The notes under the pieces are model-generated. The model was not told where the DNA came from. It saw only the letters and a program-made list of their open reading frames with translations, and searched no databases. From Pachysolen tannophilus NRRL Y-2460 (taxonomy: Eukaryota), in NCBI GenBank assembly GCA_001661245.1, contig KV454011.1, positions 461,498 through 525,497 of the forward strand: 64,000 bases of DNA, read 5' to 3'. Below are positions 101 to 41,521 of this stretch, piece after piece. The first letter of the stretch is position 1; each line of letters opens with the position of its first letter. The translations under genes and the position numbers were made by a program.

Positions 101-1261
101 GATAATGATGATTTTTGTTCGGCTTGCGGTGGTTCTGGTATTTTTTTATGCTGTGAATCGTGTCCCAAATCTTTCCATTTCCTTTGCTGTGATCCACCTT
201 TTGATGATGCAACATTACCTGAAGGAAGTTGGTATTGTAACGAGTGCAAAGCTAAATATTCTAAACCAAAGAAATATAAAGTGGGAATTTTTTCTAAATT
301 GTTAAATCAGTGTGAATTAAGAAATCCTAGAAGATTTCAATTACCAAGAAAATTGAGAGAATCTACTTTTGAAAATATAACAACTGGTAAATTTGGAGAA
401 TATCGGGATAATTCCATGAAACCTGAGAAACAGGTCAAGATAGGTAAATTGGAAGAATCTGATCCTATAAATATATATGATAAGAATGGAGCACCACTAT
501 TATGTTATAAGTGTGGTAAATCGGGTTTAGAAAAACAAATTGTGAAATGTGAATATTGTGATTTATCTTGGCATTTGGACTGTTTAACACCACCATTACC
601 TGCTATTAAAACATTAGGTACAAAGTGGAAATGTCCAAATCATTCAGATGATTTATCACTTCCACATGGAAGGAGGTTTAAAAAATCAAAAATTTTAGAT
701 GTTTCATTATTGAGGGGTTTTAAAAATAATGGCGATGTTGAAATTTTAAATCTTGAAGATGAAGATTATGAAAATGTTGTTCAATTACCAACACCAGACT
801 ATTTTAATAGCTATTATAAAGCAGGTGAAATTCATGCTCCGGTATGTGAAGAATTAGAAAAAATTGTAACAATGAACAATATTGTTTATAGAATTCCAGA
901 AAGAGGAATTATATTGGATTTCATTGATAATGCCAAGATTAGGAAAGTTCAAGAGCTTGAAAAAATGGAAAAATCAAATCATGAAATCATCCAGAAAATC
1001 GGTAACGATGAAACAAAGAAAAACTACATAGCAAGTCTCGCTGAATTCAAGAAACAGCAAAGAGTACAACTGGATTTTGAAGAATTGGTAAATATCTCAA
1101 TTGCAGAATTAGAGAAAAATGCTAAAACTCTGGATAAAGCAAAGCAAATCAACAGTATCAAAGATTTCAATGATAACGAATTGAAAGAATTGATCAACAT
1201 TAAAAAGTTAATTGAACTAAAAGGTAAAGATAGATTATTGGAGTTCTTGATAAAAGAATGA
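101..1261 (+). CDS. RCO1: Rpd3S subunit Rco1-like double-PHD-finger protein, 3' exon (5' exon lies outside the window)
   Basis: From 101 it reads DNDDFCSACGGSGIFLCCESCPKSFHFLCCDPP (PHD1). A second PHD follows (CYKCGK..CEYCDLSWHLDCLTPP..KWKCPNH), with the NPRRFQLP motif between them. Confidence 0.88.
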   Translation, partial: DNDDFCSACGGSGIFLCCESCPKSFHFLCCDPPFDDATLPEGSWYCNECKAKYSKPKKYKVGIFSKLLNQCELRNPRRFQLPRKLRESTFENITTGKFGEYRDNSMKPEKQVKIGKLEESDPINIYDKNGAPLLCYKCGKSGLEKQIVKCEYCDLSWHLDCLTPPLPAIKTLGTKWKCPNHSDDLSLPHGRRFKKSKILDVSLLRGFKNNGDVEILNLEDEDYENVVQLPTPDYFNSYYKAGEIHAPVCEELEKIVTMNNIVYRIPERGIILDFIDNAKIRKVQELEKMEKSNHEIIQKIGNDETKKNYIASLAEFKKQQRVQLDFEELVNISIAELEKNAKTLDKAKQINSIKDFNDNELKELINIKKLIELKGKDRLLEFLIKE

Positions 1262-1559
1262 TAACAAACACTACTACATTGTCATATACATTATATAAAC
1301 TGTATTTATCTAAAACACTTGTATCATCCATTCCCCCCCTACATATATACGGACATACATACATCCATCCATCTATCCATCTATCCATACTAAACCCAGA
1401 TATTGTAGTAACATTTGTAAGTAGTGCGTATAGACACCAACAATTCTTTTCGGAATACAACAAAAGCTGTGCAACACGTAGAATCTGCCATTTTCAGATA
1501 TGTTTAGCATTTATAAAGAAAAAGTTCGCGTCCCTTTTGTTTTCTCTCATACAAATAAA

Positions 1560-1655
1560 AACAAAAGGAAAAGTAAAAGTAAAAGCAAAAGCAAAAGCAA
1601 AAGCAAAAGCAAAAGCAAAAGCAAAAGCAAAAACAAAGGTAAAGGTAAAGGTAAA
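1560..1655 (+). repeat. (GCAAAA)n / (GTAAAR)n hexamer microsatellite upstream of SGS1
   Basis: Directly visible tandem hexamers. Confidence 0.9.
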
Positions 1656-1752
1656 TAGAAGGAAGTATAGGAGGAGGTGTATACGGGTATTGAGTCTCCT
1701 TAGCGGTTGGTTTATAAACTTGATCAAGAGTTTTTTAGAATTATATATTGCG

Positions 1753-2984
1753 ATGGCTAAGACGAATATCGAGTATCATAGGGCCTGGATAACAACAGAG
1801 AAACCGCATATACCAGCAAATTTTGAAATGCCCGATTTCCATGTAAATAGTAATACTTCTACTGTTGCGCCTACGGCGGTACCGCTATCAGTGAATAATT
1901 CAATCATCAATAGACATATTAATAACATTAACAACAAACTGCTGACATCTATACTGAAATTAAATGGAATACCGAGTGGTGGTAGTTATCATCATGAACC
2001 GATGATAACATCTTCCGCGACTACAATAGCAACAGCTACAGCAACATCTCTGCGCTCGATAGTACTGGGAGATAAGATAACAACTGCCAGTTTTCAAAAT
2101 TTGGCACCAATGGTGAAAATTTCACAAAATGAGCAACAACATTTACTAAATAGCATTGAACCTGTAAAGAGAACAAGCGGTATTGGGTTGATGAGTACTA
2201 AATCTCGAACTCCATCTAATTCATCTGCCAATTTAAGTACTTGGAATAGTCCAAGTAATAGAAGCAATGGAAATAGTGATGTTGGGAAAGAAGTTCCAAT
2301 GGAACACTCGGGCGAAAGAATAGCTAATGGTACAAGAAAACTTAATACTAGAAACCAGGATATTCATAACTTATTATCTACCAACGTCAGAAGTAAAGGT
2401 GAACCAACAATGATTGACTTAACAAATGATGCCGTAATTGATAAGGATCAGGAAGAGGAAACAGTTTTGAAAAATAATAACAAAAGACAAGCCTTAGATG
2501 GAAACTCTTCACTGCAACCTTTGTCGTCAAAGAAACAAAAGTTGAATAATGTTTCAAATATAACCACATCTTCTTCTTCTACCAGGCTTCCCAAAAATTT
2601 CAATGGTATTCATCCTGAATTTGATGAAGATTTGAGTCTAGAGGAGCTATTAAAGAAAAATAATAACAAGGATTTAGGTGATTTAGGAATAAAAAATACA
2701 TTAAATATTAACAATACAGCGCTGTTAAAGAAATATGTTGTACTGCAATCTAAATATATTTCATTCTGTGAAAACAAGGTAAAGTTATTACAAGAAAAAA
2801 TTGATATAATGGAGTCTACTGCAGTCTCTGACGATAGAAAGAGAATGGAAAAAAATGCCTTAAATTTGAAAATGATAGAAAATGATAGAGAAAGCTTGCC
2901 GCTAAAAAGACAATTGATAAGTTTTAACCTTGCTCAAATATTAGCAGAAGACGGCAATAATAAAAACAACAACAACAATAGTAA

Positions 2985-3025
<41 letters not shown>

Positions 3026-6000
3026 GTATTAATAATTACTCAATTATAGAAGCACATTCATCTCCAAAAAAACTAAATGGTTTTGCGGTCCCAGTACCTC
3101 CTGTGTCGCAGCAACAATCAGCACACATTTCTCAAAGACAACATCATACTTCAAACTCTTCTCTTTTACAAGATTTCTCCACTTCAGATTTTGATGTAAC
3201 TGAAGATGACCATTTGAATAATGGTAATGGCAACACAGAATTCAAAACCCCTGTTACAGTAGATGACCGATTTTTAGAGGTTGATTCAGAGGATGAAAAT
3301 ATTCAGATAATAAACGTCACGAATGAGTTACCTCGCAAGTTTACTGCTGAGAATGGAAATACCAACTCTCATGTACGTTCTAATTTACAAGAGGCTCGCG
3401 ATTATATTGAATCCAGAAAAGTTGCAAAAGTAAACAATTCAAATAACATAAACAACGGGGTCTCTGACTCAGAACCTGAGGATGTCTTCGGGTCCGAAGG
3501 TCTTATAACGGACGACGAGTTGAATCATATGAATACAACTGAGATCAACGAGTTGAATGAATTCATAGTTGATCAACTTTCTGACGACCATGATTCTTCA
3601 TTTAGAGAAAGTGCAATCGAGGAAGATGATAATGATAGCAGATATGAACTTCACGACGAGATTAATGATATTGCAAAAGAAATTGAAGATTTGAAGAATT
3701 CCTCAGAAGAAGAAGACGATAAAATTGAGGACAGCTTACAAGATCACAACATGAATGTTTCATCGCGAAACTTAGTGGAGTCAATAGACTCTTTTGATGA
3801 TGAACTCGATGAAGGCGTAGAGTATATGACTCAATTAAACCAAGAAAGAGAGTTGATCAACCTTGCATCTGATGATGATGTATTTGATGATGATGATGCT
3901 GCAATTATTGAACTAACAACGAATAAACACAACAGTGACAGTATAGTGCGTTCACTACCAAGTTCACCATTGATGAACGCTAATTTTAACGATAATGGTG
4001 AGGATGATATTCAAGAAATTGAACCTTTCCCTGATAACTCTGATAAGTTCAAAAATAAAACATACCCTTGGACTGAAGACGTTAAAAGTGCTCTTAACAA
4101 GGTCTTTAAACTTAGTTCGTTTAGACCTAATCAGCTAGAGGCTGTTAATGGTACTTTAGCTGGTGAGGATGTATTTGTTTTAATGCCAACAGGAGGCGGT
4201 AAATCTTTGTGTTATCAATTACCTGCTTTAGTTAACTCTGGTAAAACAAAGGGAACTACTATTGTTATTTCTCCTTTGATTTCATTAATGGAAGACCAGG
4301 TGGATCATTTGTTAAAACGAGGCATTCATGCAGGAATGATTAATTCTAAATCGTCGGAAAATAGAAAACAGATGTTCCAATTATTTAATCAAGGTTTGTT
4401 GCAACTTGTATATCTATCTCCAGAAATGATTAGTGCTAGTAATCAAGCCAGGAATACTATAAAAAAATTACATCAAAAAGGACAATTAGCAAGAATCGTT
4501 GTTGATGAGGCCCATTGTGTTTCTTCCTGGGGGCATGATTTCAGGCCAGATTATAAAAGTCTTACCTTCTTCAAAAAAGAATACCCAGATATTCCTATTA
4601 TGGCTTTAACGGCAACTGCAAATGAGCATGTCAGAATGGATATTGTACATAATTTGAATATGAATGATCCCCAGTTTTTCAAGCAGAGCTTCAACAGAAC
4701 CAATTTGTTTTATAAAGTTTCTTTTAAAACCAAAACGCATATAGAAGATATTTGTGATTTAATTTCATCTACTTACAGAAATTGCTCTGGAATTATTTAC
4801 TGCCATTCAAAAAACCTATGTGAACAGACTTCCGAAAAGTTATTGAATTTTGGAATTAAGGCTTCGTTTTATCATGCCGGGATGACAGCAGATGACAGGT
4901 CGGGAGTACAAAGAATGTGGCAAAATGGTACAATACAGGTTATTTGTGCCACTATTGCTTTTGGTATGGGTATTGATAAACCTGATGTTAGATTTGTCAT
5001 ACATTTGACCATTCCAAGAACTTTAGAAGGCTATTATCAAGAAACAGGTAGGGCTGGTAGAGATGGTAATCCTTCTGAATGTATAATGTATTACAGTTAT
5101 AAAGATGCCAGAGCTTTGCAATCTATGATACAAAAAGATAAGGAATTAGACAAGGATGGTAAGGAAAAACATTTGAACAAGCTTAGGCAGGTAGTTCAGT
5201 ACTGTGAAAATACTACAGATTGCCGTAGACAACAAGTTTTACAATACTTTAACGAATCTTTCAAAAGGGCAGACTGTCATAAACAGTGTGATAACTGTGC
5301 AAAAGGAACTACGGAGGCATTGATGCAAAAAGATGTTACTGAGTACGCTAAAGACATGATCAAATTAGTGCATTCTCTTCAAGATGAAAAAGTCACTCTT
5401 TTATATTGTCAAGATGTCTTCAAAGGGTCGAAATCCAATAAGATTATTGTTGCTCAGCATGACCAGAATCCTTATCATGGAAGAGGAAAGGATTTAGATA
5501 AATTATCGATAGAGAGAATTTTCTTTCATCTTATTTATGAGCAAATTCTACAAGAATACTCGGTGATGAACAATGCTGGATTTGCACTAAATTATATTAA
5601 AGTTGGCAAATTTTCGAATTTAGTTTTGTCTGGCAAAAAGAAAATAATAATTTCTTTCAACGTTGAAGATAAGGCTACAAATAACAACAATAATAACAGT
5701 AACAATAAACCGATTTCAAGAAATACTCTGGCCCAGCAACCTCCCGAAAATTTAAACACTTTTAGATTTGATGAAAATGTTCCGATGAGTCACTTCGTTC
5801 CTGCTACCAATGAATTAAAAAGGCAACAATCTTTTAATGGTACACCACATATTAATTTACCGCGCAGGAAGTTTTCATTTGAACAAGAAAAATTTATTAA
5901 CAAATCTTATGGTGCATTAAATGATGTGAGAATGCGAAAAATGAGTGAACTTGGAATTACAATTTCTTCGCATATTGCGTCTGACGCTGTATTAAGAGAG

Positions 6001-6585
6001 CTTGCGATTTTGTTACCTACCACCTCTAAGGATTTCAAAAAGATTCCTGGTATTACTGGTAAGGAAGCCATGAATTTTTCTACTTTCAAAAGCACATTGA
6101 TCAAATTACGTAAGGAGAGAGAATCAGGCAATTTATTCAATTTTGAAATTCCACCTTCTTCTTTGAATTCTGCTACACAAACTAATGTCTTAACCCAGAA
6201 TAATAACCATAATAATAATAATAATAATAATAACAGTAATACATCTCCTTATTTCAATAATTTTGAATCGACAGATGAGGATGTTTTAACAAAATTAAAA
6301 GAGATTCATTCGTCACAATTATCTGGAAGAAGTCCTGATCTACAGAGAACTAAAAGAATACCTTCTTCACAGAAGTCAAGAAGAGGTGGTTATAGAAAAC
6401 GAGGTGGGCGCGCTTCTGGTAATATTGGTCACGGTAATTATAAGAATAATAACAGAACGGATTCAACTAGGACTGCAAAAAGGTCGGCAGGGTCCTCTAA
6501 AAATAATAATTGGACAACAGCGTCGTCTTTGAACAAAAGCCAAAATGCAAAGAAACCTTTAGTGCCAAGAAGTTTGCAGTTGTAG
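1753..6585 (+). CDS. SGS1: RecQ-family DNA helicase Sgs1 (likely start MAKTNIEYH at 1753)
   Basis: MPTGGGKSLCYQLP, DEAHCVSSWGHDFRPDY, ATIAFGMGIDKPDVRFV, YYQETGRAGRDG, the RQC Cys cluster and an HRDC-like region. The N-terminus resembles the Top3-binding Sgs1 start. Confidence 0.95.
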
Positions 6586-6979: not shown

Positions 6980-9900
6980 CTACTCCGATTCTTCCTCATA
7001 TCCGTCTTGTTCACTTTCACTCCCATCTTCCACATTATAGTTAATTTTCTTAGTAGAGCGGCTGGATTTTCGAGTCGGTTCGGCAGGTACATTGGCATCA
7101 TATTTTCTGAACTTTTTCGAAGACTTCCTGTTAGTTAGATTATAGTTTTCTTTGTCGCCGTCAACATCTCTAGAAGCTAACTTTACTTTTTTGGTAAGAT
7201 TAGGTTTCAGCAGCTGCAGCTGAAGTTGCAGTAATTGTTTAGGCCTCTTGACTCCGCTGCTTGAGCCCGTGTTTTGATGATGACTTGTGATGGTACCTAC
7301 TTTTACTTTAATTAATGTATTCAACCTTTTTGAGATCACCTCAGGAATGAAAACATTACTAACAACATACTGAGCTTCTTTTAATGATTTTGTTGGTTTA
7401 AACAAATCAGCTGAAAGCTGGAACTTTCCGGGATACGTTGAAATTATCCAGTTTTTAATAGAAGATAATTCCTTGATAGACAGTTGACATAATTCCGCTA
7501 TTCTGTATATGTTTAAACAAATATGCTTTTGAGAATTTGTGCTGTTATCTGCGTTCTCCTGGGTTGAGTAAAAACTTTCATAGACTTCGTCAGGAATAAA
7601 ATTATCCCTGTATTGCTTCAATCTTGAAGCAAAATAATATAACAAAGAAATGTTTTCTTGAGTACCAACAATTTCTAAATAAAAGCAAATATATTCTAAT
7701 GCAAAAGAATACGCTTGAAGTGAGGTTTCCCCATTAGGATCATTTTCAAAAGATTCTTCAATCAATTCCACAAATTCTTGATGATGCGAAACCATGTGAA
7801 GTAGCCTAACCAATGACCTTTCGTAAACAATATTGTTATTATTGTTGATGCAACCACCTGCAGTTTGATTCTTTTTAGAATTCAACTTTCTGTTGAAAGA
7901 TGACTTTATCCATGTTTTTACATCTTTCTTGAGATCCTCATTTGGTTCGTGAGCAATAAAAAAAACCAAGGGCAAAAATCTTTCGCTGATTAGATCATCG
8001 TTCAAATACTTCTCTAATTTTGAAATTATCCGTTGTCTGATTGACAAATTTTCATCTTGAATTAAAAAGATTAAGCTATTCAAAGAAGCAGTCTTTAGCA
8101 TACCATTGTAAACAGGATATTTTGAAAGTTTCAATAGCGATACACCAGCCTGTAGTCTCAAACGCGACTGGTAATGTTTTGGAGTCGGATATGTTTTACT
8201 CTTGGGTGATACAATCTCACCACCATTGCCTATTAAAGAGACTAATAATTTTAAAACAGGTTCGGCTAAGACCTGAATTTTTTTCACTTCTTCACCATCT
8301 AACTCATCGCTATTTGGACTGATCGAAATCAATCTATTAACAAAAATCTTCAAGGTCAATAACTTAGCATAACATTCTTTGTGTTCAACTTTTTCCAAAT
8401 CCACATCATCTACCCATTCTGGATCATTATCAGTGGCAAGTTTTCTATTTTTCAACAATATTTCTTTAATTAAATAAGTTGTTATTTCTGATGCCTTAGA
8501 TTCGACTACAGAATTATCTTCAGTTTTCAAAAACAATTCGGCTATAACAGCTAGATCTGTAACGAAGTTTTGTTTGTTCAGATCCAAAGGATAGATTTTG
8601 GACATAATTTCCTCTGAGTACGAATATTTATGATTTGACAACAATAAAATTCTAATTGCATAACGAGCCTCCAATGGCATACCGTATAATGATATTTTAG
8701 ACAAATTCTCATAAACCCCACTGCTGTCAACTAAATCAAAGTCAGGAAATTTTTTGATAAAGTGATATACTGTCTTCAAAGAATTGGTTAAACTTTCTCT
8801 ATTACTATCATCATTATCGTAATTCGAGATTAAGTTGGTCAATTCGTGAATTTCAGATTTAAAAACCCCGGGAGTCTGGTTTGAAATAACTTCCAAAAGA
8901 TCCTGAGCAGATTTGTTCAAACTATGAGATGTATCTTTGGCAATTTTTAAAATTATAGAAACATTACTTTTGTTAACAAATAAGACCGATGACCTGTATA
9001 ATAAGAGTTTAAAAACCAATGACATTTCATGCAAGCTTATGGAGTTCAATTCATTGTCTAATTTGATCGTTTTCAGATCTGAAATTTTATTGAAAAACTC
9101 TTTCAAAGAATTTCTAATAGTTTCGTAATCGCTCTCCACAGAAAGACATAATTTAACCAACTTGTAAAATCTTCTATTATTTAAATACAAAAACCTTTTT
9201 AGGCACTCTTTTGAGTTAATATTATCTGGTAAGCTATTGCATAGCCAATCTATTATTCTTTGTAATTTTTTCTCCAAGTCGGCATCTTTATTGCTGCCCC
9301 CATTGAACAACTCACAGAAGTTTATAAATTGAAGTAACACGTCACTTAACTGTTGTTGTCTTCTAATAATAGCGACAAAAGAAGACTTTGGTTTTGGACT
9401 CAAACTCTGTAAAATTGTTAGCAATCTATGAACTCTTTTAACCGTATTATTTTCAATCGGTAAGATTTGTTCAAAAATACATAAATCTACCACCGAATTA
9501 ATATTTTTATCATTGATGTAAATCAAGCTTAGAATATGATCTGGAATCCATGATAAAAGTTTGTCCAACAGTTCATCACCTTTATAAAGATCATCAAAAA
9601 TTTCATTGTACAAATACCCCAATAAGCTAATAATTTTATTTCTAATATCAGCATGCTTTTCTCTAATTAATTGACCCAAGGTATTCATAATATTAAGGTT
9701 TGCTAGTTTTTTAATAAAGATATTAGGATGTAGCTCTGAAATTTTTTTGCACGCCATATATCTGACTCTTTCGTCTGAATCTAATAAGGATTTTGTTAAA
9801 CCGTTACGTATATCATTTAATATTGAAATTTCTGATCTGGAATTCAAAATTAGTACAGAAGTTTCAACCCACTTACACCGAACTTGAGGTGAAATATCTA

Positions 9901-11019
9901 AAGTCTTCTTTAGCCAAATGGTCAATGAATCAGAATGGTCTTTCAAAAAATTTATTCTTGAGGGTTGAACTGCAATGATCTTTCCAATAGTTTCAGTAGC
10001 AAGTACTCTTATATGAACATCTTCTGCTTCTAATTCGTTATCAATTAACCCCATTACTGAGGACAAAACTTCGGGAACAGTTTTCCAAATCTCCAAAGTT
10101 AATCTATGTATTTTCTGTACTTGTTCAGCAATTTTGCTTTTTACCTCATGCAGTTCTTTACCGTCTTCAATCGTGTTAGAACTTTCATAAATAATTTCTG
10201 AAAAAAATTGAGTGATCTGCCTGGACATTCTATCAGTATTTGTCTTGCAGATACTTAGGGTAAAATTCAATCCTGGATTTGAAACATTTGATAACTGAGT
10301 TGAGGAAGGTGTTGATAAAAATTTGTTCAAGATTAATTTTAAAACAGAATGAGGTATGAAATCACTTTCAGATATAACTTCGGATAAGATATCACAAATA
10401 AGTGGTTCTAGTTTTGTTGGGAAATCATTTTGGTTAGCTAGGTCGTAAAAAGTTCGAAAAAGTAATTCTATTAATTTTTCTGAATCTGGTAAATCAGTTA
10501 TTAGGATAACTGATCTAACTTCTGCTAACCTCTGTAACAAATATAAATATTGTTGAAAATATCCATTCGTTTCCTGTTCATTCAAATGCCTGAACTGATG
10601 AAAAAAAAGTTTAAAAATATCTGTTAACTGTGAAGCAGTGAAGGGAGCATCTGGTGCATAAATTCTTAATATATCAGATAAACAACAAGCAACATAGGCC
10701 TGAATTCCCAAATTGCTGTTTTTTAATAACTTCTTATGACCTAACTGATCCTTAATATTATCCAACGACAGAGTATCTATTTTTTCCAGATCAATTGAAG
10801 AGATTTCATTAGACAAGTCCTAGAGGGGGAGGAAAAAAAAAAGTCAAACGTTAGTATGATACTCAACTAAATAAAACCAAACAAAAGGGAAACAAAGTTG
10901 GAATTAAAAATGCTTACTTTTAATCTAGCTAACAAATCTTTGTTAGATATTGACTCCTTAACACTTGGTACAATAGTCTTGTTAAACTTCAACTGCTGTA
11001 GATGCTTATTCTTAACCAT
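6980..11019 (-). CDS. PDS5: Cohesin regulator Pds5; exons 11019-10918 and 10819-6980
   Basis: VACCLSDILRIYAPDAPFT motif and HEAT-like body. Intron 10917-10820 has GTAAGC donor, TACTAAC and TAG. Splicing joins ...LLARLK|DLSNEIS in frame. Confidence 0.93.
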
Positions 11020-34706: not shown

Positions 34707-36350
34707 TCAAGAAATAGTACAGTCAATTAATCCTAATCCATACATGATCTTATCAACATCTTTTTCTATAAGACTCCAATCTGACCTTCTAGTAACAAAC
34801 TCGTAAATCTCTTCTTGATTGAAAATTCCATTTTCTCTACCGAGTTTGATAATCAACTTCCCGATATCTTTTGAATTCTCGCTATCAATCAAATATAGCT
34901 GTGCAATGGATTTTAAAACATTGAAATAGTTCAACACAGGTTTAATTTTCAAATCTGCGAAAAACTTGTAGTAATAGTTTAAATCTGATATAAGTATTAT
35001 TGCACCGGTATTAGAAATTATTAATTTCTTGGTTATTAACTTGACCAATATTGAAAAAAATCGTTCACCAATTTCTTGTTGAAACACTTCCACTATTGCT
35101 TTATCAATGGATCCAGTTAACAAATTCATGTGGTTACTTAACAATTCAACAATCTTAAAAGCAGCTTTTGAAGGAACACCTAATTCTATTTTTTTCTGTA
35201 AAATATCCTTTTCGGTTAAATTATAGTCACTTTCATTCAAATTAGTTACAATCACATACCCAACTTCGTTGATTAATACATCTATAGATACATTTAAGCC
35301 ATCTGCAACGTAATTATCCAAGATATTTTCAAATTTCTTGATAGACTTCTCACATTTGTTTATCAGCAAGAAATCTTTCTTTGTTTTATTTTCTCTTCTA
35401 ATAATACTGGAATTAATAAGCTCTTCACGGTAAAAGACTGAAATCATTTGTTGTACTAAATCACCAACATTGACTAGCTCTATAAAATTAATCAATGGTT
35501 CAACGGTGGTGTTTGATTTTTTAAATTCAGAAGGATTATAATCTTTTAATCTCAGTATAGCGTTATCAAAACCAAATTTAATATGTTCATCCATTAAAAC
35601 ATTTAACATATCATTGAACATTTCCTGGCAAACTAAATTAACTCTACGGATTAAACCATTGTTAATATAACTTGATGAAGGAGGACTATATTCCCCAACT
35701 TTCTTTTTCTTTGTATTTTTTTCTACGTCAGCATGATGAGTTAAACTTATTAAAAGTTGAATATTTTCTTTCAAAAGTTTCAATATAGTAATAGATAAAT
35801 CTAAAGAAATTAAAGATTTAATATTATTCAAATTTGCTGTTAAAATTTTCAAATTAGCTTCACTTTTTGTTAAAGTTTTATTGTTGCTGCCATTACTTCC
35901 AGTAATATTACTTGAAGTTGTAGAACTAGTAGCACTATTTTTGCCCACTTTGAAAATTTTGTTGAATCCATTAAATATATCCAAGTTTAAAAAATTTTTG
36001 TTGTTTTTATCACTATCTCTATTAACAGAACTCAAAATGTCCACTGTTTGACTCATTTCATGTTGTCTTTGAGCTTTTTTCCAATTTTCAATCAATGAAA
36101 TAAAACTTGAATGGCATTGAGTAGGCAAATTATCTATAAACTCAGAAAGAAATTGTTCATAGTAAAAATCTACCAACTCAATTACCAATTTTCGATAGTC
36201 TATCACTGCTGGTTTAGATAAGTTTAATAAATTATCATTACTGGGATCAGGCAGTTGCATTGGTATTTCGGTAAGCGGATAAGACAATTTTTCAAAAGTG
36301 GTGACAATTTTTCTATAAAGATATGGAACCATTTGAAAATACAAATCCAC

Positions 36351-36395
<45 letters not shown>

Positions 36396-37643
36396 TTCAT
36401 CATGTTTTTCTTCAATTCCTTTAGTCCTATTTTCCGGCTTAATCTCCTCTTTTTGTTCCTTTTCAGTCTCTGTTGCAAGCTTGTTCCATTCGCTAGACTC
36501 TTCAGGTAATGCAACAACATTATTATCATTATTATCAATGTTATTATTACTGAAGTTAATATCAATATTTTTGAAACTTTCATTTAACTTTGCATTATCC
36601 ACAAAAGCATTAGCATTTTGAAGTAATAATGCATCTGTAGATTCGTCAAGCATTTTTGATTTTGATATTAATTCTTCAGTAAATTTGCCTATCAAGAAAT
36701 TTTGTAAGAAATTCTCTATTATTTTCAATATAATTGAAACTTCATTTATATCGTCATCTTTTGAAGCTAGGTATCCTGAATTCGATGGGAAAATAGAAGC
36801 AATTTCATTTAACTGATTATTCAAAGTATTTGAAATTTGTAGGAAAATATCATCCAATTTCGAATAATTTATCCTTGCCTTTTCTTTGTCAAATATAAAA
36901 CAACTATCCACTAATGATTCAGAGGTTATGAATTCAAAATCATCCATATATTTGTTAATGAAAAATTCCAAAATTAATTCTAAACTATCATTGAAAATTT
37001 TCGGCCCATTAACATCATCAGTGATATCTTTTAAATTATTCAACACTTTTATGAATCTAAAACAATTTTCATAATTTTTATCGTCAAAACTGATTTCAAT
37101 TTCTTTCAACACAGAATTTATGAAAATTTCTACTATAGTGTTTAAACGTATTATATAGTTTTTATAATCATCTGAGTGATCAAATAATTTTACAAAAACC
37201 ATTAAATTGTTGAAAATAGTTGATTGTGATTCAGGATCTTTAAACTGCTTGAATATTTTACAATTAGTGAAATTGGAATAGTTCACTATGATTATATCTT
37301 TGAAAACCGGATAAAGTTGAATATATATAGCCTTGAATTGTAAATATGCCAATTCGCAATTGTATATCGTTAGCTTCTCATCAAGACAATTTAAGACATT
37401 GTAACTGTTTAAAATGTCCCGCGTCTTGTGCTTATCACCCAAAGTATTGTAATTATATTTATTCCAAACTTTCAACCTCTTCAATAAGTTAATCCACACT
37501 GTGTTTTGATTATTAAAAACCGATTTGTGACCATTTTTATTTATCAAGCTAAAATTTAAAATATCTTTCAAATCCCTTAGATTCTGAGCTATCTTAACAG
37601 CAATTGATACCGGAAGCTCCTTCTCATTGCTAGAATCATTCAT
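34707..37643 (-). CDS. RCY1: F-box/Sec10-like recyclin Rcy1 (ATG 37643)
   Basis: N-terminal F-box-like LPVSIAVKIAQNL, VEPLINFIELVNVGDLVQQMI, VFQQEIGERFF, EEIYEFVTRRSDW..IMYGLGLIDCTIS (CaaX-like end). Confidence 0.9.
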
Positions 37644-37803
37644 ATCGGCCGCAACATCAACAAATTTTAATAAAATAAATTCCAAATATACTTCAATTTT
37701 GTTTATTTAATGTATTTTTAAAATCATTTTCCAAATCTGTATGTAAAGTTTTCATTTTATTTTTTTTGCATTTTGTAAAAGAGAAAGCTTTCAAAAAGTC
37801 TTT

Positions 37804-38271
37804 TTAAAAATCATCAAATTTTATAACGCCAATAAACATTTTTAAAGATAATTTTTGTAATCTGGAAATCTTATCATTAGTAACATCTGTATCTTGTTCT
37901 TGGAAATCATCTCTATAAATCAACGATTCTAATTTTTTAAATAAATATTCACCAACAAGTAGACTTAATAATATGTATTTCTTCTTCAAAGAAAGTTTAT
38001 TATGATTTTTATTGGTATCAGCATCAGCCATCACTAGTCTTGACAATATTAAACCATAAGAAGAATTTTTATCATATATCGTCAATTTAAATAGTATCAA
38101 TTTTAATATCAATTTTAATTCATCGTTATTCTTTACTTTTAAATCAGATATTCTCTTGGGTAAATTCTTGACATTGAAACAATCAATTAATGTCTGATAA
38201 AGTAATTCAAAGAGCTCATTATCAAGCAAGCGCGAGTCCAATTGACTAACCCTATTTTTCGGGTTTATCAT
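37804..38271 (-). CDS. PEX2: Peroxin Pex2, N-terminal half only
   Basis: RVSQLDSRLLDNEL, ELKLILKLILFKLTIYD..SSYG and KKYILLSLLVGEYLFKKL are Pex2 N-terminal motifs. It ends shortly after with FIGVIKFDDF*. Confidence 0.85.
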   Translation of the reverse strand: MINPKNRVSQLDSRLLDNELFELLYQTLIDCFNVKNLPKRISDLKVKNNDELKLILKLILFKLTIYDKNSSYGLILSRLVMADADTNKNHNKLSLKKKYILLSLLVGEYLFKKLESLIYRDDFQEQDTDVTNDKISRLQKLSLKMFIGVIKFDDF

Positions 38272-38887
38272 TTTCTTATTTCTTCTAATAATGAGTATCT
38301 AGTTATGTTTTAATTTAAATATATCAAAAAAAAAAATTGTTAAAACTAGTAAAATTTTGTAAAATTAAAATTATTAAAAAAGAATATGATTAGTTTGATA
38401 CCAATTTATAAATGGATTACAAGATAAAACTACAGGATATATATGTCAGCGTAAAGGATATTTAATATACGATATTGAAAATTATCAAATTCATTTCTTT
38501 CTTTCTAAATATTATAGACAAATCATTTATACCTGGTATCTATCTACACTTGAGTTAAAACATCAAAACATCAAAAACATTCATTATAGTTAAGTTCAAA
38601 CATGATCATTTAGTGGTGTCATTTAAAAACCTCTTCTTGACCAATTCGTTCAATGAATGGCCTTCTTCTCTACCAACTCTCTTCTCATACGCATAGTAGG
38701 AAAAAACACCTACTGAAATACCAAATAATGGATCAATATACCTATTTCATTCAAATGGAGTTAGTTTCTCTTAGTTTTTTTTTCTTTCTTTCTTTCTTTC
38801 TTTCTTTGTCTTGCAAGACTCTGAATCAACTTACTTGGAAATAAGATAAGGATAAGATGCCATCTCGTCTATGAATGATATATAAAA

Positions 38888-39712
38888 ATGATATTACCAA
38901 ACATTTCAAAGGTTTATTCAATACTGATGTTGGTAAATTTTTTACAATTTTTAATAGATGGGAATTATCCTACAATAGCATTCAGATTCTCCAACATTAA
39001 ATTAAAACCTTCTCCAGGCTCTTCATCAACGGCGCTAAATAGCCCAGAAAACATTTCCTACGAATTTCAAAATAGACAATTGGTTTGGAATACTTTAACA
39101 GAATTTTTGCTATTCACATTACCAATTTTGAAATTACCTAAATTTTCTACTAGATTAATCAACCTTGTTATGGGTAAAAATAGAAATTTGAAAACTGATT
39201 CTGCAACTGCTGAAATCTCTGCTTATGGCAATACCTCGTTGAAAGAATGTGCCATTTGCTTATTGCAAGAAGGCAATAATGCAACTATTGGTAACAATAA
39301 TGATCACTCGGGTTTGACTTCAGGTAATCATAATTTGATCACAAATCCATATATAACGAATTGTGGCCATTGTTATTGTTATATATGTATATTATCAAAA
39401 TTGGAACAATATCGTGGAGAAAAAGATCATTGGAAATGTTTAAGATGTGGACAGGATGTTAAATGGTGCAAGAAATTTGATGATGTTGATACAAAATACA
39501 TCATTTGCAATATTACAACAATTGGAAAACAATCATCGGAAAACATTGAAAAGCGAAACGAACAGGATAATACAGAAGCGAATGCCGCAGAATTCATCAA
39601 TAACACCACAGAGGACGAAGATGAACCTGAAAATGAACCTGAAAATGACACTGGAGATGACGCTGAAGATGACACTGAACCTGCTAATAATGGCGGCTTC
39701 TTTGTCCAGTAG
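38888..39712 (+). CDS. PEX2: Peroxin Pex2, C-terminal half with RING finger
   Basis: LVNFLQFLIDGNYPT, ISYEFQNRQLVWNTLTEFL, CAIC..NPYITNCGHCYCYICI..WKCLRCG, acidic tail. Confidence 0.9.
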   Translation: MILPNISKVYSILMLVNFLQFLIDGNYPTIAFRFSNIKLKPSPGSSSTALNSPENISYEFQNRQLVWNTLTEFLLFTLPILKLPKFSTRLINLVMGKNRNLKTDSATAEISAYGNTSLKECAICLLQEGNNATIGNNNDHSGLTSGNHNLITNPYITNCGHCYCYICILSKLEQYRGEKDHWKCLRCGQDVKWCKKFDDVDTKYIICNITTIGKQSSENIEKRNEQDNTEANAAEFINNTTEDEDEPENEPENDTGDDAEDDTEPANNGGFFVQ

Positions 39713-40081
39713 TAAACGCCGGTTTTTGATCGATCGTGCACTACCCGATGGATCTGCTGATCTCACCTGATCGCATGATTGTGCATCCAGCACCAAAAGG
39801 TCAGTCAGTTTCATCTAATAAAAGTTTGCTTCTCGTATAAGTATATAAGCCGTGTTAATTTTTCCAAGAAGTATGAAAGAACGATAGTGTGAAATTTGAT
39901 TTAGCTGGAGGTATATTATTATAAAATTTAATCTGATCAGTTGTATTATAAGAAGAAAAAGTTATCGAAACTGTTTTACTTTATCTTGAGGCGTTTACTA
40001 TTGAAGTTGAAGAAATCAATTAAATATATAATTGTTTTCGGATTAATCATATTATATTTGATTTATTACTATAAATTATTT

Positions 40082-41521
40082 ATGAAAGAAAGCATGCCAA
40101 GTGCGGTAGTTGTAGGTTCTGGATTTGCTGGTTTATCGACTACGTATCATCTTTTGAATAATGGATTTAAAGTAACGTTATTGGAGAAGACACCTGTAGT
40201 AGGTTTCCACTCGAATTCGAATAAGGCATCATCAGGTATAAATGGTGCAGAAACGAGATTTCAGCGTCTGCAAGGGGTTTCTGATGATTCAGCAGATTTA
40301 TTCTATAGAGACTCTTTGCATTCAGCAAAAGATTCAGCAAGACCAGATTTGTTGAAAGTGTTAACTTTTAGATCAAACGAAATTATTGAATGGCTTTCGA
40401 ACGATTTACAAATTGATTTGTCTACTGTTAGTCAATTGGGAGGTCATTCCAAGCCAAGAACTCATAGGGGAAGTAGTGGACTACCTCCAGGTTATGCAAT
40501 TATTAGTCAATTGGTCAAATTCGTTAAAAATCAAGAGAATTTAACTGTATTAAGCTCTTCCAGAGCTATTAAACTTTTAACTGATGATGGAGAAAGGAAA
40601 AAAATTATTGGATTAGAGTATCAAGATGAGTCTGGGACTTTATCTAATCCTGCAATAACTAAAAAAATTAATACGAATGTTGTTGTTTTGGCCACTGGAG
40701 GATACTCTGCCGATTTTACTTCACAAAATTCCTTACTATCACAATATCGTAGGGACTTAATTAAACTACCTTCTACAAATGGTCAACAAACCACCGGTGA
40801 TGGTATTAAATTAGCTCTGGATATAGGTGCACGATTAGTAGATATGGATAAAGTTCAGCTTCATCCAACTGGTTTTGTTGATCCTCAAGATCCAAATAAT
40901 AAATGGAAAATCTTAGCTGGTGAAGTCTTGAGAGGTTGTGGAGGAATCTTGTTAAATCAACACGGACATCGTTTTGTTGATGAATTACAAACAAGAGATT
41001 TAGTTGCAGAAGCTATTCGTAGTTCCGAGAATAGTCAAGTTATAAGTCATGTAACTTTAGTCATTTCAGGAAATTCTTACAATGAAATCAAAACTCATTT
41101 AGATTTTTATATATCAAAAGGATTAGTGTTTAAGGCTACTTTGAAAGAATTATCTGAGAGACTCAATATACCATTATTGGATTTGGTTCATCAATTACAA
41201 TCATACAATATTCACCGTTTAAACAAGACACCGGATGAATTTGGTAGAACAATTTTTGGTGAACCATTTGGAATCGATGCAGATTCCATAATTTATTATG
41301 GTACTATAACACCAGTTTTGCATTTCACCATGGGTGGCGTTGAGATTGATGAGCATTCTAGAGTATACGATAATAATAATGAAATCATTGATGGATTATA
41401 CGCTGTAGGAGAGGTTAGTGGCGGTGTTCATGGTGCTAATAGATTAGGTGGTAGTTCTCTATTGGAAAGTGGAGTATTTAGCAAAGTTGCCAGTGAGGAT
41501 ATCATTGAAAAATTTTCTTAA
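40082..41521 (+). CDS. Soluble flavocytochrome-type fumarate reductase (Frd1/Osm1 family)
   Basis: VVVGSGFAGL, NSNKASSGING, QLGGHSKPRTHR, VQLHPTGF, LHFTMGGV, GGVHGANRLGGSSLLE. Start uncertain (ATG 40082 or 40094, or TTG 39941). Confidence 0.92.
   Translation: MKESMPSAVVVGSGFAGLSTTYHLLNNGFKVTLLEKTPVVGFHSNSNKASSGINGAETRFQRLQGVSDDSADLFYRDSLHSAKDSARPDLLKVLTFRSNEIIEWLSNDLQIDLSTVSQLGGHSKPRTHRGSSGLPPGYAIISQLVKFVKNQENLTVLSSSRAIKLLTDDGERKKIIGLEYQDESGTLSNPAITKKINTNVVVLATGGYSADFTSQNSLLSQYRRDLIKLPSTNGQQTTGDGIKLALDIGARLVDMDKVQLHPTGFVDPQDPNNKWKILAGEVLRGCGGILLNQHGHRFVDELQTRDLVAEAIRSSENSQVISHVTLVISGNSYNEIKTHLDFYISKGLVFKATLKELSERLNIPLLDLVHQLQSYNIHRLNKTPDEFGRTIFGEPFGIDADSIIYYGTITPVLHFTMGGVEIDEHSRVYDNNNEIIDGLYAVGEVSGGVHGANRLGGSSLLESGVFSKVASEDIIEKFS

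What the first reader, a model, noticed from the sequence alone, without database searches (positions are those of the whole stretch)
37804..39712. PEX2 split into two divergent intact ORFs by a ~1.05 kb inversion bounded by an 8-bp inverted repeat
Seen: the N-terminal Pex2 motifs are on the minus strand (38271-37804). The rest, including the RING, is on the plus strand (38888-39712), head-to-head across 616 bp. CATTTTTA at 37837-37844 and TAAAAATG at 38883-38890 form an inverted repeat. Flipping 37837-38890 gives a seamless in-frame ...ISRLQKLSLKM-ILPNISKVYS... full-length Pex2. An alternative junction a few nt away, LKMFI-KMILP, is also in frame. Neither half has a disabling mutation, the C-half opens on an ATG in good context (AAAATG), and the break follows a variable acidic loop between membrane segments. 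Known: Pex2 is normally one polypeptide of the Pex2/10/12 RING ligase needed for peroxisomal import. Inferred options: (a) a natural gene fission expressed as two subunits from the former RCY1/PEX2 bidirectional promoter; (b) a reversible flip/flop switch for peroxisome biogenesis that also swaps the RCY1 upstream region; (c) a strain-specific lesion; (d) a misassembly.
Basis: partly seen in the sequence, partly recalled or inferred. Interest (0 to 1): 0.9.

Follow-up and report, generated by a model that had tools for sequence, protein, structure and literature searches.

The report
PEX2 split is assembly-private inversion
The yeast peroxisome gene PEX2 looks cut in two in this assembly because a 1 kb piece lies back to front, but contigs built from the public sequencing reads of two samples carry it the other way round, with one ordinary intact gene.

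Summary
A Pex2 N-half ORF lies on the minus strand (37804-38271) and a Pex2 C-half with RING on the plus strand (38888-39712). Their Pfam PF04757 coordinates are complementary, 1-121 and 125-210 of 214. The inversion is absent from contigs built from public reads. In 4 of 4 runs laid (2 samples, 2 studies, word depth 15-187), the contigs join 37835 to the reverse complement of 38882, and the reverse complement of 37836 to 38883. No contig follows the window across either junction. Turning 37836-38882 round gives one 421-aa PEX2 ORF. It aligns in a single piece with 14 of 14 full-length homologues, with no gap at the seam. It also gives a normal layout: RCY1-like gene, 211 nt, NCE101, 334 nt, PEX2. 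The "8-bp inverted repeat" is really two copies of a tandem TTAAAAATG (LKM-LKM) inside the intact gene, separated by the breakpoint. The true junctions share 1 nt. In 11 of 11 strongly matching relatives' loci, PEX2 is contiguous. Verdict: an assembly or finishing artefact (about 0.75), or a lesion private to the sequenced isolate (about 0.2). It is neither a gene fission nor a switch.

The parts
37836..38882 (.). The 1047-bp segment that lies inverted in the window relative to the contigs built from reads. There is 1 nt of ambiguity, so 37835-38883 is equivalent.
   Evidence: tables 5 and 8. 'Opposite strands' joints at 37835|38882 and 37836|38883 (37834|38883 and 37835|38884 in X4) appear in X1, X2, X4 and X5. 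No record runs colinear with the window across either junction.
37804..38271 (-). Pex2 N-half ORF (155 aa). Residues 1-145 and the first base of codon 146 (38271 down to 37836) are genuine PEX2. The tail FIGVIKFDDF-stop (37835-37804) is read-through into what is really RCY1-NCE101 intergenic DNA.
   Evidence: ORF; PF04757 positions 1-121 of 214, E 2.3e-14; junction.
38888..39712 (+). Pex2 C-half ORF (274 aa) with the end of the Pex2_Pex12 domain and the RING finger. Its ATG is the internal Met148 of the intact 421-aa protein.
   Evidence: PF04757 positions 125-210, E 6.8e-16; RING models at 21-22 bits, below their cut-offs; invariant Cys/His columns C121 C124 C159 H161 C167 C184 C187, with C164 nearly invariant.
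38606..38863 (-). NCE101 gene with one intron. Exon 1 is 38863-38835. The intron is 38834-38742 (GTAAGT ... AACTAAC ... TAG). Exon 2 is 38741-38606. It lies inside the inverted segment.
   Evidence: sequence and splice signals read directly; exon 2 matches PF11654 NCE101, E 1.3e-18, 66.9 bits against a cut-off of 24.
37837..37844 (.). In the intact gene it is the first copy of a tandem TTAAAAATG x2.
38883..38890 (.). Right arm (TAAAAATG). In the intact gene it is the second copy of the tandem repeat. It lies outside the inverted segment.
34707..37643 (-). In the read-supported form its ATG lies 211 nt from the NCE101 ATG, and the two genes are divergent.
   Evidence: (PF07393 Sec10_HB, E 2.7e-40).
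38326..38336 (.). A-run of 11 in the window. Contigs of all 4 runs carry two more A here.
   Evidence: count, table 4 ('put in behind 38325: AA' in X1, X2, X4 and X5).

Best explanation
The split PEX2 is not a property of the organism. In the genome as its sequencing reads show it, segment 37836-38882 lies the other way round. The locus is then ordinary: an RCY1-like gene (minus strand), a 211-nt divergent promoter region, NCE101 (plus strand, one intron), 334 nt, and a single intact 421-aa PEX2 (plus strand). The window's orientation is most likely an assembly or finishing artefact, a roughly 1-kb piece inserted back to front. The two 'intact' ORFs follow trivially. The N half runs on for 10 codons into intergenic DNA until a stop. 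The C half begins at an internal Met that happens to sit 5 nt after the breakpoint. That the intact form exists and is the only form in contigs from 2 samples is shown. That the window's form arose in assembly rather than in a cell is inferred.
For: (1): contigs of 4 of 4 runs laid carry the flipped junctions, and none carries the window's. The runs are X1, X2 and X4 (one sample, study P1) and X5 (another sample, study P2), at word depth 15-187. Up to 255 or more letters lie on the shorter side of a joint. Over the 3401 bases there are 0 other-letter differences, so these are essentially the same strain as the window.
(2): all 5 holders share 0.97 of the sampled words. This is roughly what the loss of the words across two junctions and one indel would give (my estimate).
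(3): flipping 37836-38882 gives one 421-aa ORF with no internal stop.
(4): that ORF gives a single BLASTP alignment across the seam with 14 of 14 full-length homologues. The best is P0002, covering query residues 1-420 at E 1e-88. The multiple alignment has no gap in ...LSLKMLKMILPNISKVYS....
(5): in the window's orientation the NCE101 ATG (38863) and the C-half ATG (38888) are 24 nt apart, back to back, so each would need a promoter inside the other's coding sequence. In the flipped form every gene has a normal upstream region.
(6), table 4: the window also differs from all 4 runs by a homopolymer length (11 A against 13 A). This is a typical consensus error.
(7): 11 of 11 strongly matching metagenome loci (L001-L011) have the N half directly upstream of the C half on the same strand.
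Against: I could not establish that the window was assembled from the sample behind X1-X4. A real inversion in the particular culture or clone sequenced would look the same.

The junctions are blunt (1 nt shared). That fits two-break end joining in a cell at least as well as an assembler error, and I found no obvious assembler trigger (no long repeat) at either junction.

The rest of the window shows no sign of poor assembly. None of the other ORFs of 110 aa or more that I scanned is split: 25 and 2 neighbours. The PDS5 case is a normal intron.

Contigs drop rare variants, so a minority of cells with the window's form is not excluded (caveat).
Confidence: 0.75

Rival explanations
1. A real but private inversion. 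In the isolate, subculture or clone used for this assembly, two double-strand breaks were rejoined with the 1047-bp piece reversed. One break was in the RCY1-NCE101 intergenic region and one in codon 146 of PEX2. This would knock out PEX2 and displace the NCE101 promoter. It would be a recent loss-of-function lesion, not an adaptation.
For: The junctions are blunt with 1 nt of ambiguity, as expected of end joining (column 'both' = 1). No long repeat that would mislead an assembler lies at the junctions. Consensus quality elsewhere in the window looks good. Neither half has acquired any further mutation: 0 other letters against the read contigs. This fits a very recent event.
Against: The inversion is absent from all 4 runs of 2 samples, which are otherwise identical to the window over 3.4 kb. 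The window also carries a homopolymer discrepancy against all 4 runs, which suggests that errors arose in the assembly (table 4).
Confidence: 0.2
2. A reversible flip-flop switch. The segment inverts back and forth in the population, turning PEX2 on and off and swapping the RCY1 and NCE101 upstream regions.
For: Two orientations exist in public data if the window is taken at face value: the window. Contigs cannot exclude a minor subpopulation (caveat).
Against: Only one orientation appears in the contigs of 4 runs, and the contigs run straight through both junctions without a branch. The true junctions share 1 nt and there are no flanking inverted repeats. The 8-bp 'repeat' is a tandem direct repeat in the intact gene, with one copy inside and one outside the segment. 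No recombinase or integrase family was found among the 29 window ORFs scanned.
Confidence: 0.02
3. A natural gene fission. The species expresses Pex2 as two polypeptides that assemble with Pex10 and Pex12.
For: Both ORFs are open in the window, and the C half begins with ATG in an A-rich context.
Against: Reads of the same strain show an unsplit gene. Relatives are unsplit in 11 of 11 loci. Of the 57 non-self hits, 54 are 313-478 aa long. The 3 shorter ones (225-248 aa) include 2 on contigs under 1.4 kb. The C half has 24 nt of upstream sequence before the neighbouring gene's start codon. The halves show no divergence from the intact allele.
Confidence: 0.02

Closest known systems
Local inversion (misorientation) errors in draft or finished genome assemblies
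   Same: A short segment is reversed relative to the reads, and an otherwise conserved gene is broken exactly at the segment's edge. The segment is otherwise identical in sequence to the reads. A homopolymer-length discrepancy lies nearby.
   Different: No long inverted repeat or gap (N run) marks the junctions. The usual trigger for such an error is therefore not visible, and a real private inversion cannot be ruled out.
Peroxin-2 (Pex2) of budding yeasts, e.g. the Komagataella phaffii protein named 'Peroxin and E3 ubiquitin ligase' (P0002)
   Same: The read-supported 421-aa protein aligns with P0002 over residues 1-420 at 36% identity, E 1e-88. It has the Pex2_Pex12 N-terminal region and a C-terminal RING with conserved Cys/His columns.
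   Different: Only the window's assembly presents it as two ORFs. The protein has a tandem LKM-LKM and an acidic C-terminal tail that are not conserved in relatives.
Invertible DNA switches (site-specific inversion between inverted recombination sites, such as bacterial invertons or FLP/FRT of the yeast 2-micron plasmid; named from general knowledge)
   Same: A DNA segment is found in two orientations, and gene expression would depend on which one is present.
   Different: There are no inverted recombination sites at the true junctions (1 nt shared). No recombinase gene is in the window. Only one orientation is seen in the read contigs.

Membership tests
Pex2 (peroxin-2, RING subunit of the Pex2/Pex10/Pex12 ligase) | Pex2_Pex12 amino-terminal (membrane) region, PF04757 | tested here: met
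   N half matches profile positions 1-121 (54.1 bits) and C half positions 125-210 (59.1 bits). Both exceed the 25.1-bit cut-off. Together they cover the 214-position profile.
Pex2 (peroxin-2, RING subunit of the Pex2/Pex10/Pex12 ligase) | C-terminal RING zinc finger with its Cys/His ligands | tested here: met
   zf-RING_UBOX scores 21.6 bits and zf-C3HC4_2 21.2 bits, both below their curated cut-offs of 25.2 and 27. C121, C124, C159, H161, C167, C184 and C187 are invariant in 13 sequences, and C164 is nearly invariant.
Pex2 (peroxin-2, RING subunit of the Pex2/Pex10/Pex12 ligase) | One continuous polypeptide | tested here: met
   Not met in the window as assembled. Met in the contigs built from reads of 4 of 4 runs, which give a 421-aa ORF colinear with 14 of 14 homologues.
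Invertible DNA switch | Inverted repeats or recombination sites at both junctions | tested here: not met
   the joints share 1 nt; the 8-bp repeat is a tandem direct repeat in the intact form; the 8-mer is no more frequent than chance.
Invertible DNA switch | Both orientations coexist in a population | tested here: not met
   only the intact orientation appears in contigs of 4 runs. Contigs can hide rare variants, so a minority is not excluded.
Invertible DNA switch | A dedicated recombinase | tested here: not met
   no recombinase or integrase family among 29 ORFs of the 64-kb window. The rest of the genome could not be searched.
Natural gene fission (split gene encoding two subunits) | The split is fixed in the organism and shared with, or derived relative to, its relatives | tested here: not met
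   unsplit in reads; 11 of 11 relatives' loci contiguous; 54 of 57 non-self hits are 313-478 aa.
Natural gene fission (split gene encoding two subunits) | Each half is transcribed and translated on its own | not testable with these tools
   No RNA run was listed. The sequence shows only 24 nt between the C-half ATG and the NCE101 ATG.

The most novel reading that the evidence does not exclude
The window's orientation is real and coexists at low frequency with the intact one in cultures of this yeast. That would be a recurrent or reversible 1-kb inversion that switches off PEX2, and so peroxisomal matrix import, while re-wiring the NCE101 and RCY1 upstream regions. Contigs would hide such a minority form.
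Probability: 0.03. Interest if true: 0.6.

Novelty: not a real feature. Interest (0 to 1): 0.07.

Why it matters
Taken at face value, a split RING peroxin or an invertible peroxisome switch would have been remarkable. The reads show neither. The practical value is curation. This assembly carries a 1047-bp misoriented (or isolate-private) segment that breaks PEX2 and displaces NCE101. Gene callers have already turned the C half into a 274-aa 'protein' in public collections (P0001). Anyone inferring loss or fission of PEX2 in this yeast from the assembly would be misled.

Tried and rejected
- A whole-genome search for a second PEX2 copy was not possible, because no genome is held for this window.
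- No RNA holder was listed among the sequencing runs, so expression of either form could not be examined.
- Earlier notes of this scan returned nothing for this genome.
- I looked for an intact same-species PEX2 protein in the protein collection. The C-half search (150-480 aa) returned the window's own 274-aa ORF and then only relatives at 28-44% identity, so it gave no independent protein-level confirmation.
- I looked for conserved NCE101-PEX2 synteny in relatives. NCE101 was found next to PEX2 in only 1 of 11 strong loci (L008), downstream on the opposite strand. Synteny is therefore uninformative about orientation.
- Five further loci (L012-L016) matched only a short piece of the C half (E about 1e-4) and showed no N-half match at E 0.01. 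I left them out of the 11-locus count as too distant or fragmentary.
- I looked for other assembly damage in the window. The PDS5-like ORF that seemed to lack its N-terminus has a canonical 5' intron, and no other split gene was seen.
- A paper search for 'Pex2' plus 'gene fission' gave 1 unrelated paper, seen as a listing only.
- The tandem 18-nt form of the junction is absent from the window, as expected.
- In one search I labelled the seam as residues 144|145. The correct position is within codon 146 (recount). The printed alignment covers it and the conclusion is unchanged.

Full report
**What is in the window.**

The region belongs to an AT-rich budding yeast, about 28-33% G+C across the window. 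The best PEX2 relatives are in Komagataella, Brettanomyces and allied yeasts.

- ORF 37804-38271 on the minus strand (155 aa) matches the Pfam Pex2_Pex12 profile at positions 1-121 of 214.
- ORF 38888-39712 on the plus strand (274 aa) matches positions 125-210, followed by a RING finger.

The 8-mer CATTTTTA (37837-37844) and its complement (38883-38890) are also there.

It holds a small gene on the minus strand with a canonical yeast intron:
- exon 1: 38863-38835
- intron: GTAAGT ... AACTAAC ... TAG
- exon 2: 38741-38606

Exon 2 matches Pfam NCE101 at E 1.3e-18. The NCE101 start codon is only 24 nt from the start codon of the PEX2 C half, back to back. As assembled, each gene would need its promoter inside the other's coding sequence.

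**Is the repeat more than chance?**

No. The 8-mer occurs 14 times in the window against 17.7 expected from shuffles. The 2-kb region 37400-39400 holds 206 inverted pairs of 8 nt or more.

**The decisive test.**

The stretch 36800-40200 is held by five public runs, each with 0.97 of the sampled words. I laid the read-derived contigs of four of them:
- X1, X2 and X4, from one sample and one study
- X5, from a second sample and a second study

In 4 of 4 runs the contigs show "opposite strands" joints (tables 5 and 8). Position 37835 is joined to the reverse complement of 38882, and the reverse complement of 37836 is joined to 38883. In X4 the numbers shift by one, because one base fits either side.

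No contig in any run follows the window across either junction. Contig word depths are 15-187. Up to 255 or more letters lie on the shorter side of a joint.

Apart from this, the contigs are identical to the window over all 3401 bases (0 other letters). The one exception is two extra A in the A-run at 38326-38336, in all four runs (table 4).

So the reads of what is essentially the same strain carry segment 37836-38882 in the opposite orientation.

**What the read-supported form encodes.**

I built that form by coordinates in a script. It gives a single 421-aa ORF without an internal stop.

The seam falls in codon 146 and the protein reads ...LSLKM-LKM-ILPN.... The intact gene contains a tandem TTAAAAATG x2, and the breakpoint lies between the two copies. 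His reconstruction, which merged them, is 3 residues short.

The 421-aa protein gives one BLASTP alignment spanning the seam with 14 of 14 full-length homologues. The best is P0002, covering residues 1-420 at E 1e-88. The multiple alignment has no gap at the seam.

The FIGVIKFDDF tail of the N-half ORF is read-through into intergenic DNA. The "good-context ATG" of the C half is internal Met148.

The locus layout becomes ordinary:
- the RCY1-like gene (Sec10_HB domain) on the minus strand
- 211 nt of divergent upstream region
- NCE101 on the plus strand
- 334 nt
- PEX2 on the plus strand

**Relatives.**

Of the 57 non-self hits to the C half, 54 are 313-478 aa, which is full length. The 3 shorter ones are 225-248 aa, and 2 of those sit on contigs under 1.4 kb.

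Sixteen metagenome loci encoding relatives were fetched. The 11 strong ones (L001-L011) all have the N half immediately upstream on the same strand. The 5 weak ones (L012-L016) matched only a short piece and were left out. NCE101 neighbours PEX2 in only one locus (L008), in a different arrangement.

**Interpretation.**

It is shown that an intact PEX2 exists and is the only form in contigs from two samples. Why the window differs is inferred.

I favour an assembly or finishing artefact, at about 0.75. Three things support this:
- the runs are otherwise identical to the window
- one sample was sequenced repeatedly and always shows the intact form
- the window also carries a homopolymer-length discrepancy typical of consensus error

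A real inversion private to the sequenced culture or clone remains possible, at about 0.2:
- the junctions are blunt, which suits two-break end joining
- I see no repeat that would mislead an assembler
- the rest of the window looks clean: 29 ORFs were scanned, and the only apparent truncation, in a PDS5-like gene, is a normal 5' intron

A flip-flop switch and a natural fission each get about 0.02. Only one orientation is seen. There are no recombination sites at the true junctions. There is no recombinase in the window. Relatives are unsplit, and the halves show no divergence from the intact allele. Contigs can hide rare variants, so a minority form is not formally excluded.

**Comparison with what is known.**

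The gene is an ordinary member of the Pex2 family. The Pex2_Pex12 region and the RING ligands are present, and the polypeptide is continuous in the reads.

The "feature" belongs with local misorientation errors in assemblies. It fails the defining tests for an invertible switch and for a gene fission.

A full-text search for Pex2 together with "gene fission" found one unrelated paper, seen as a listing only.

**Limits.**

- No whole genome is held for this window.
- No RNA run was listed.
- No more reads could be laid, so I could not look at raw reads or at other parts of the assembly.
- I did not establish whether the window was assembled from the sample behind X1-X4.

Noticed in passing
window 38606-38863 (-): An NCE101 gene with one intron (GTAAGT / AACTAAC / TAG) lies between the two PEX2 halves. 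In the read-supported orientation it is divergent from the RCY1-like gene, with 211 nt between their ATGs, and in tandem with PEX2.
   Followed up: yes
window 38326-38336: The A-run is 11 long in the window. Contigs of all 4 runs laid have 13 A. This is either a homopolymer-length error in the assembly or a private length variant. It is intergenic and has no coding effect.
   Followed up: partly
window 38767-38817: A (CTTT)n microsatellite lies inside the NCE101 intron. The read contigs of all runs break there, and the laying tool skipped it.
   Followed up: no
window 6980-11019 (-): The ATG-to-stop ORF of a PDS5-like gene lacks the first ~198 profile positions. The gene is nevertheless intact, with a short first exon (ATG at 11019, ending 10918) and a canonical intron (GTAAGC ... 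TACTAAC ... TAG, 10917-10820).
   Followed up: yes
window 416-1261 (+) and 1258-6585 (+): A 281-aa PHD-finger ORF ends 4 nt inside the start of a 1775-aa RecQ/Sgs1-type helicase ORF in another frame. The two may be separate genes, the helicase start may be misjudged, or there may be a frameshift. This was not resolved.
   Followed up: no
L008 5007-5120 (-): In one metagenome relative, an NCE101 homologue (55% identity over 38 aa) lies just downstream of PEX2 on the opposite strand. NCE101-PEX2 adjacency therefore recurs in a different arrangement.
   Followed up: no
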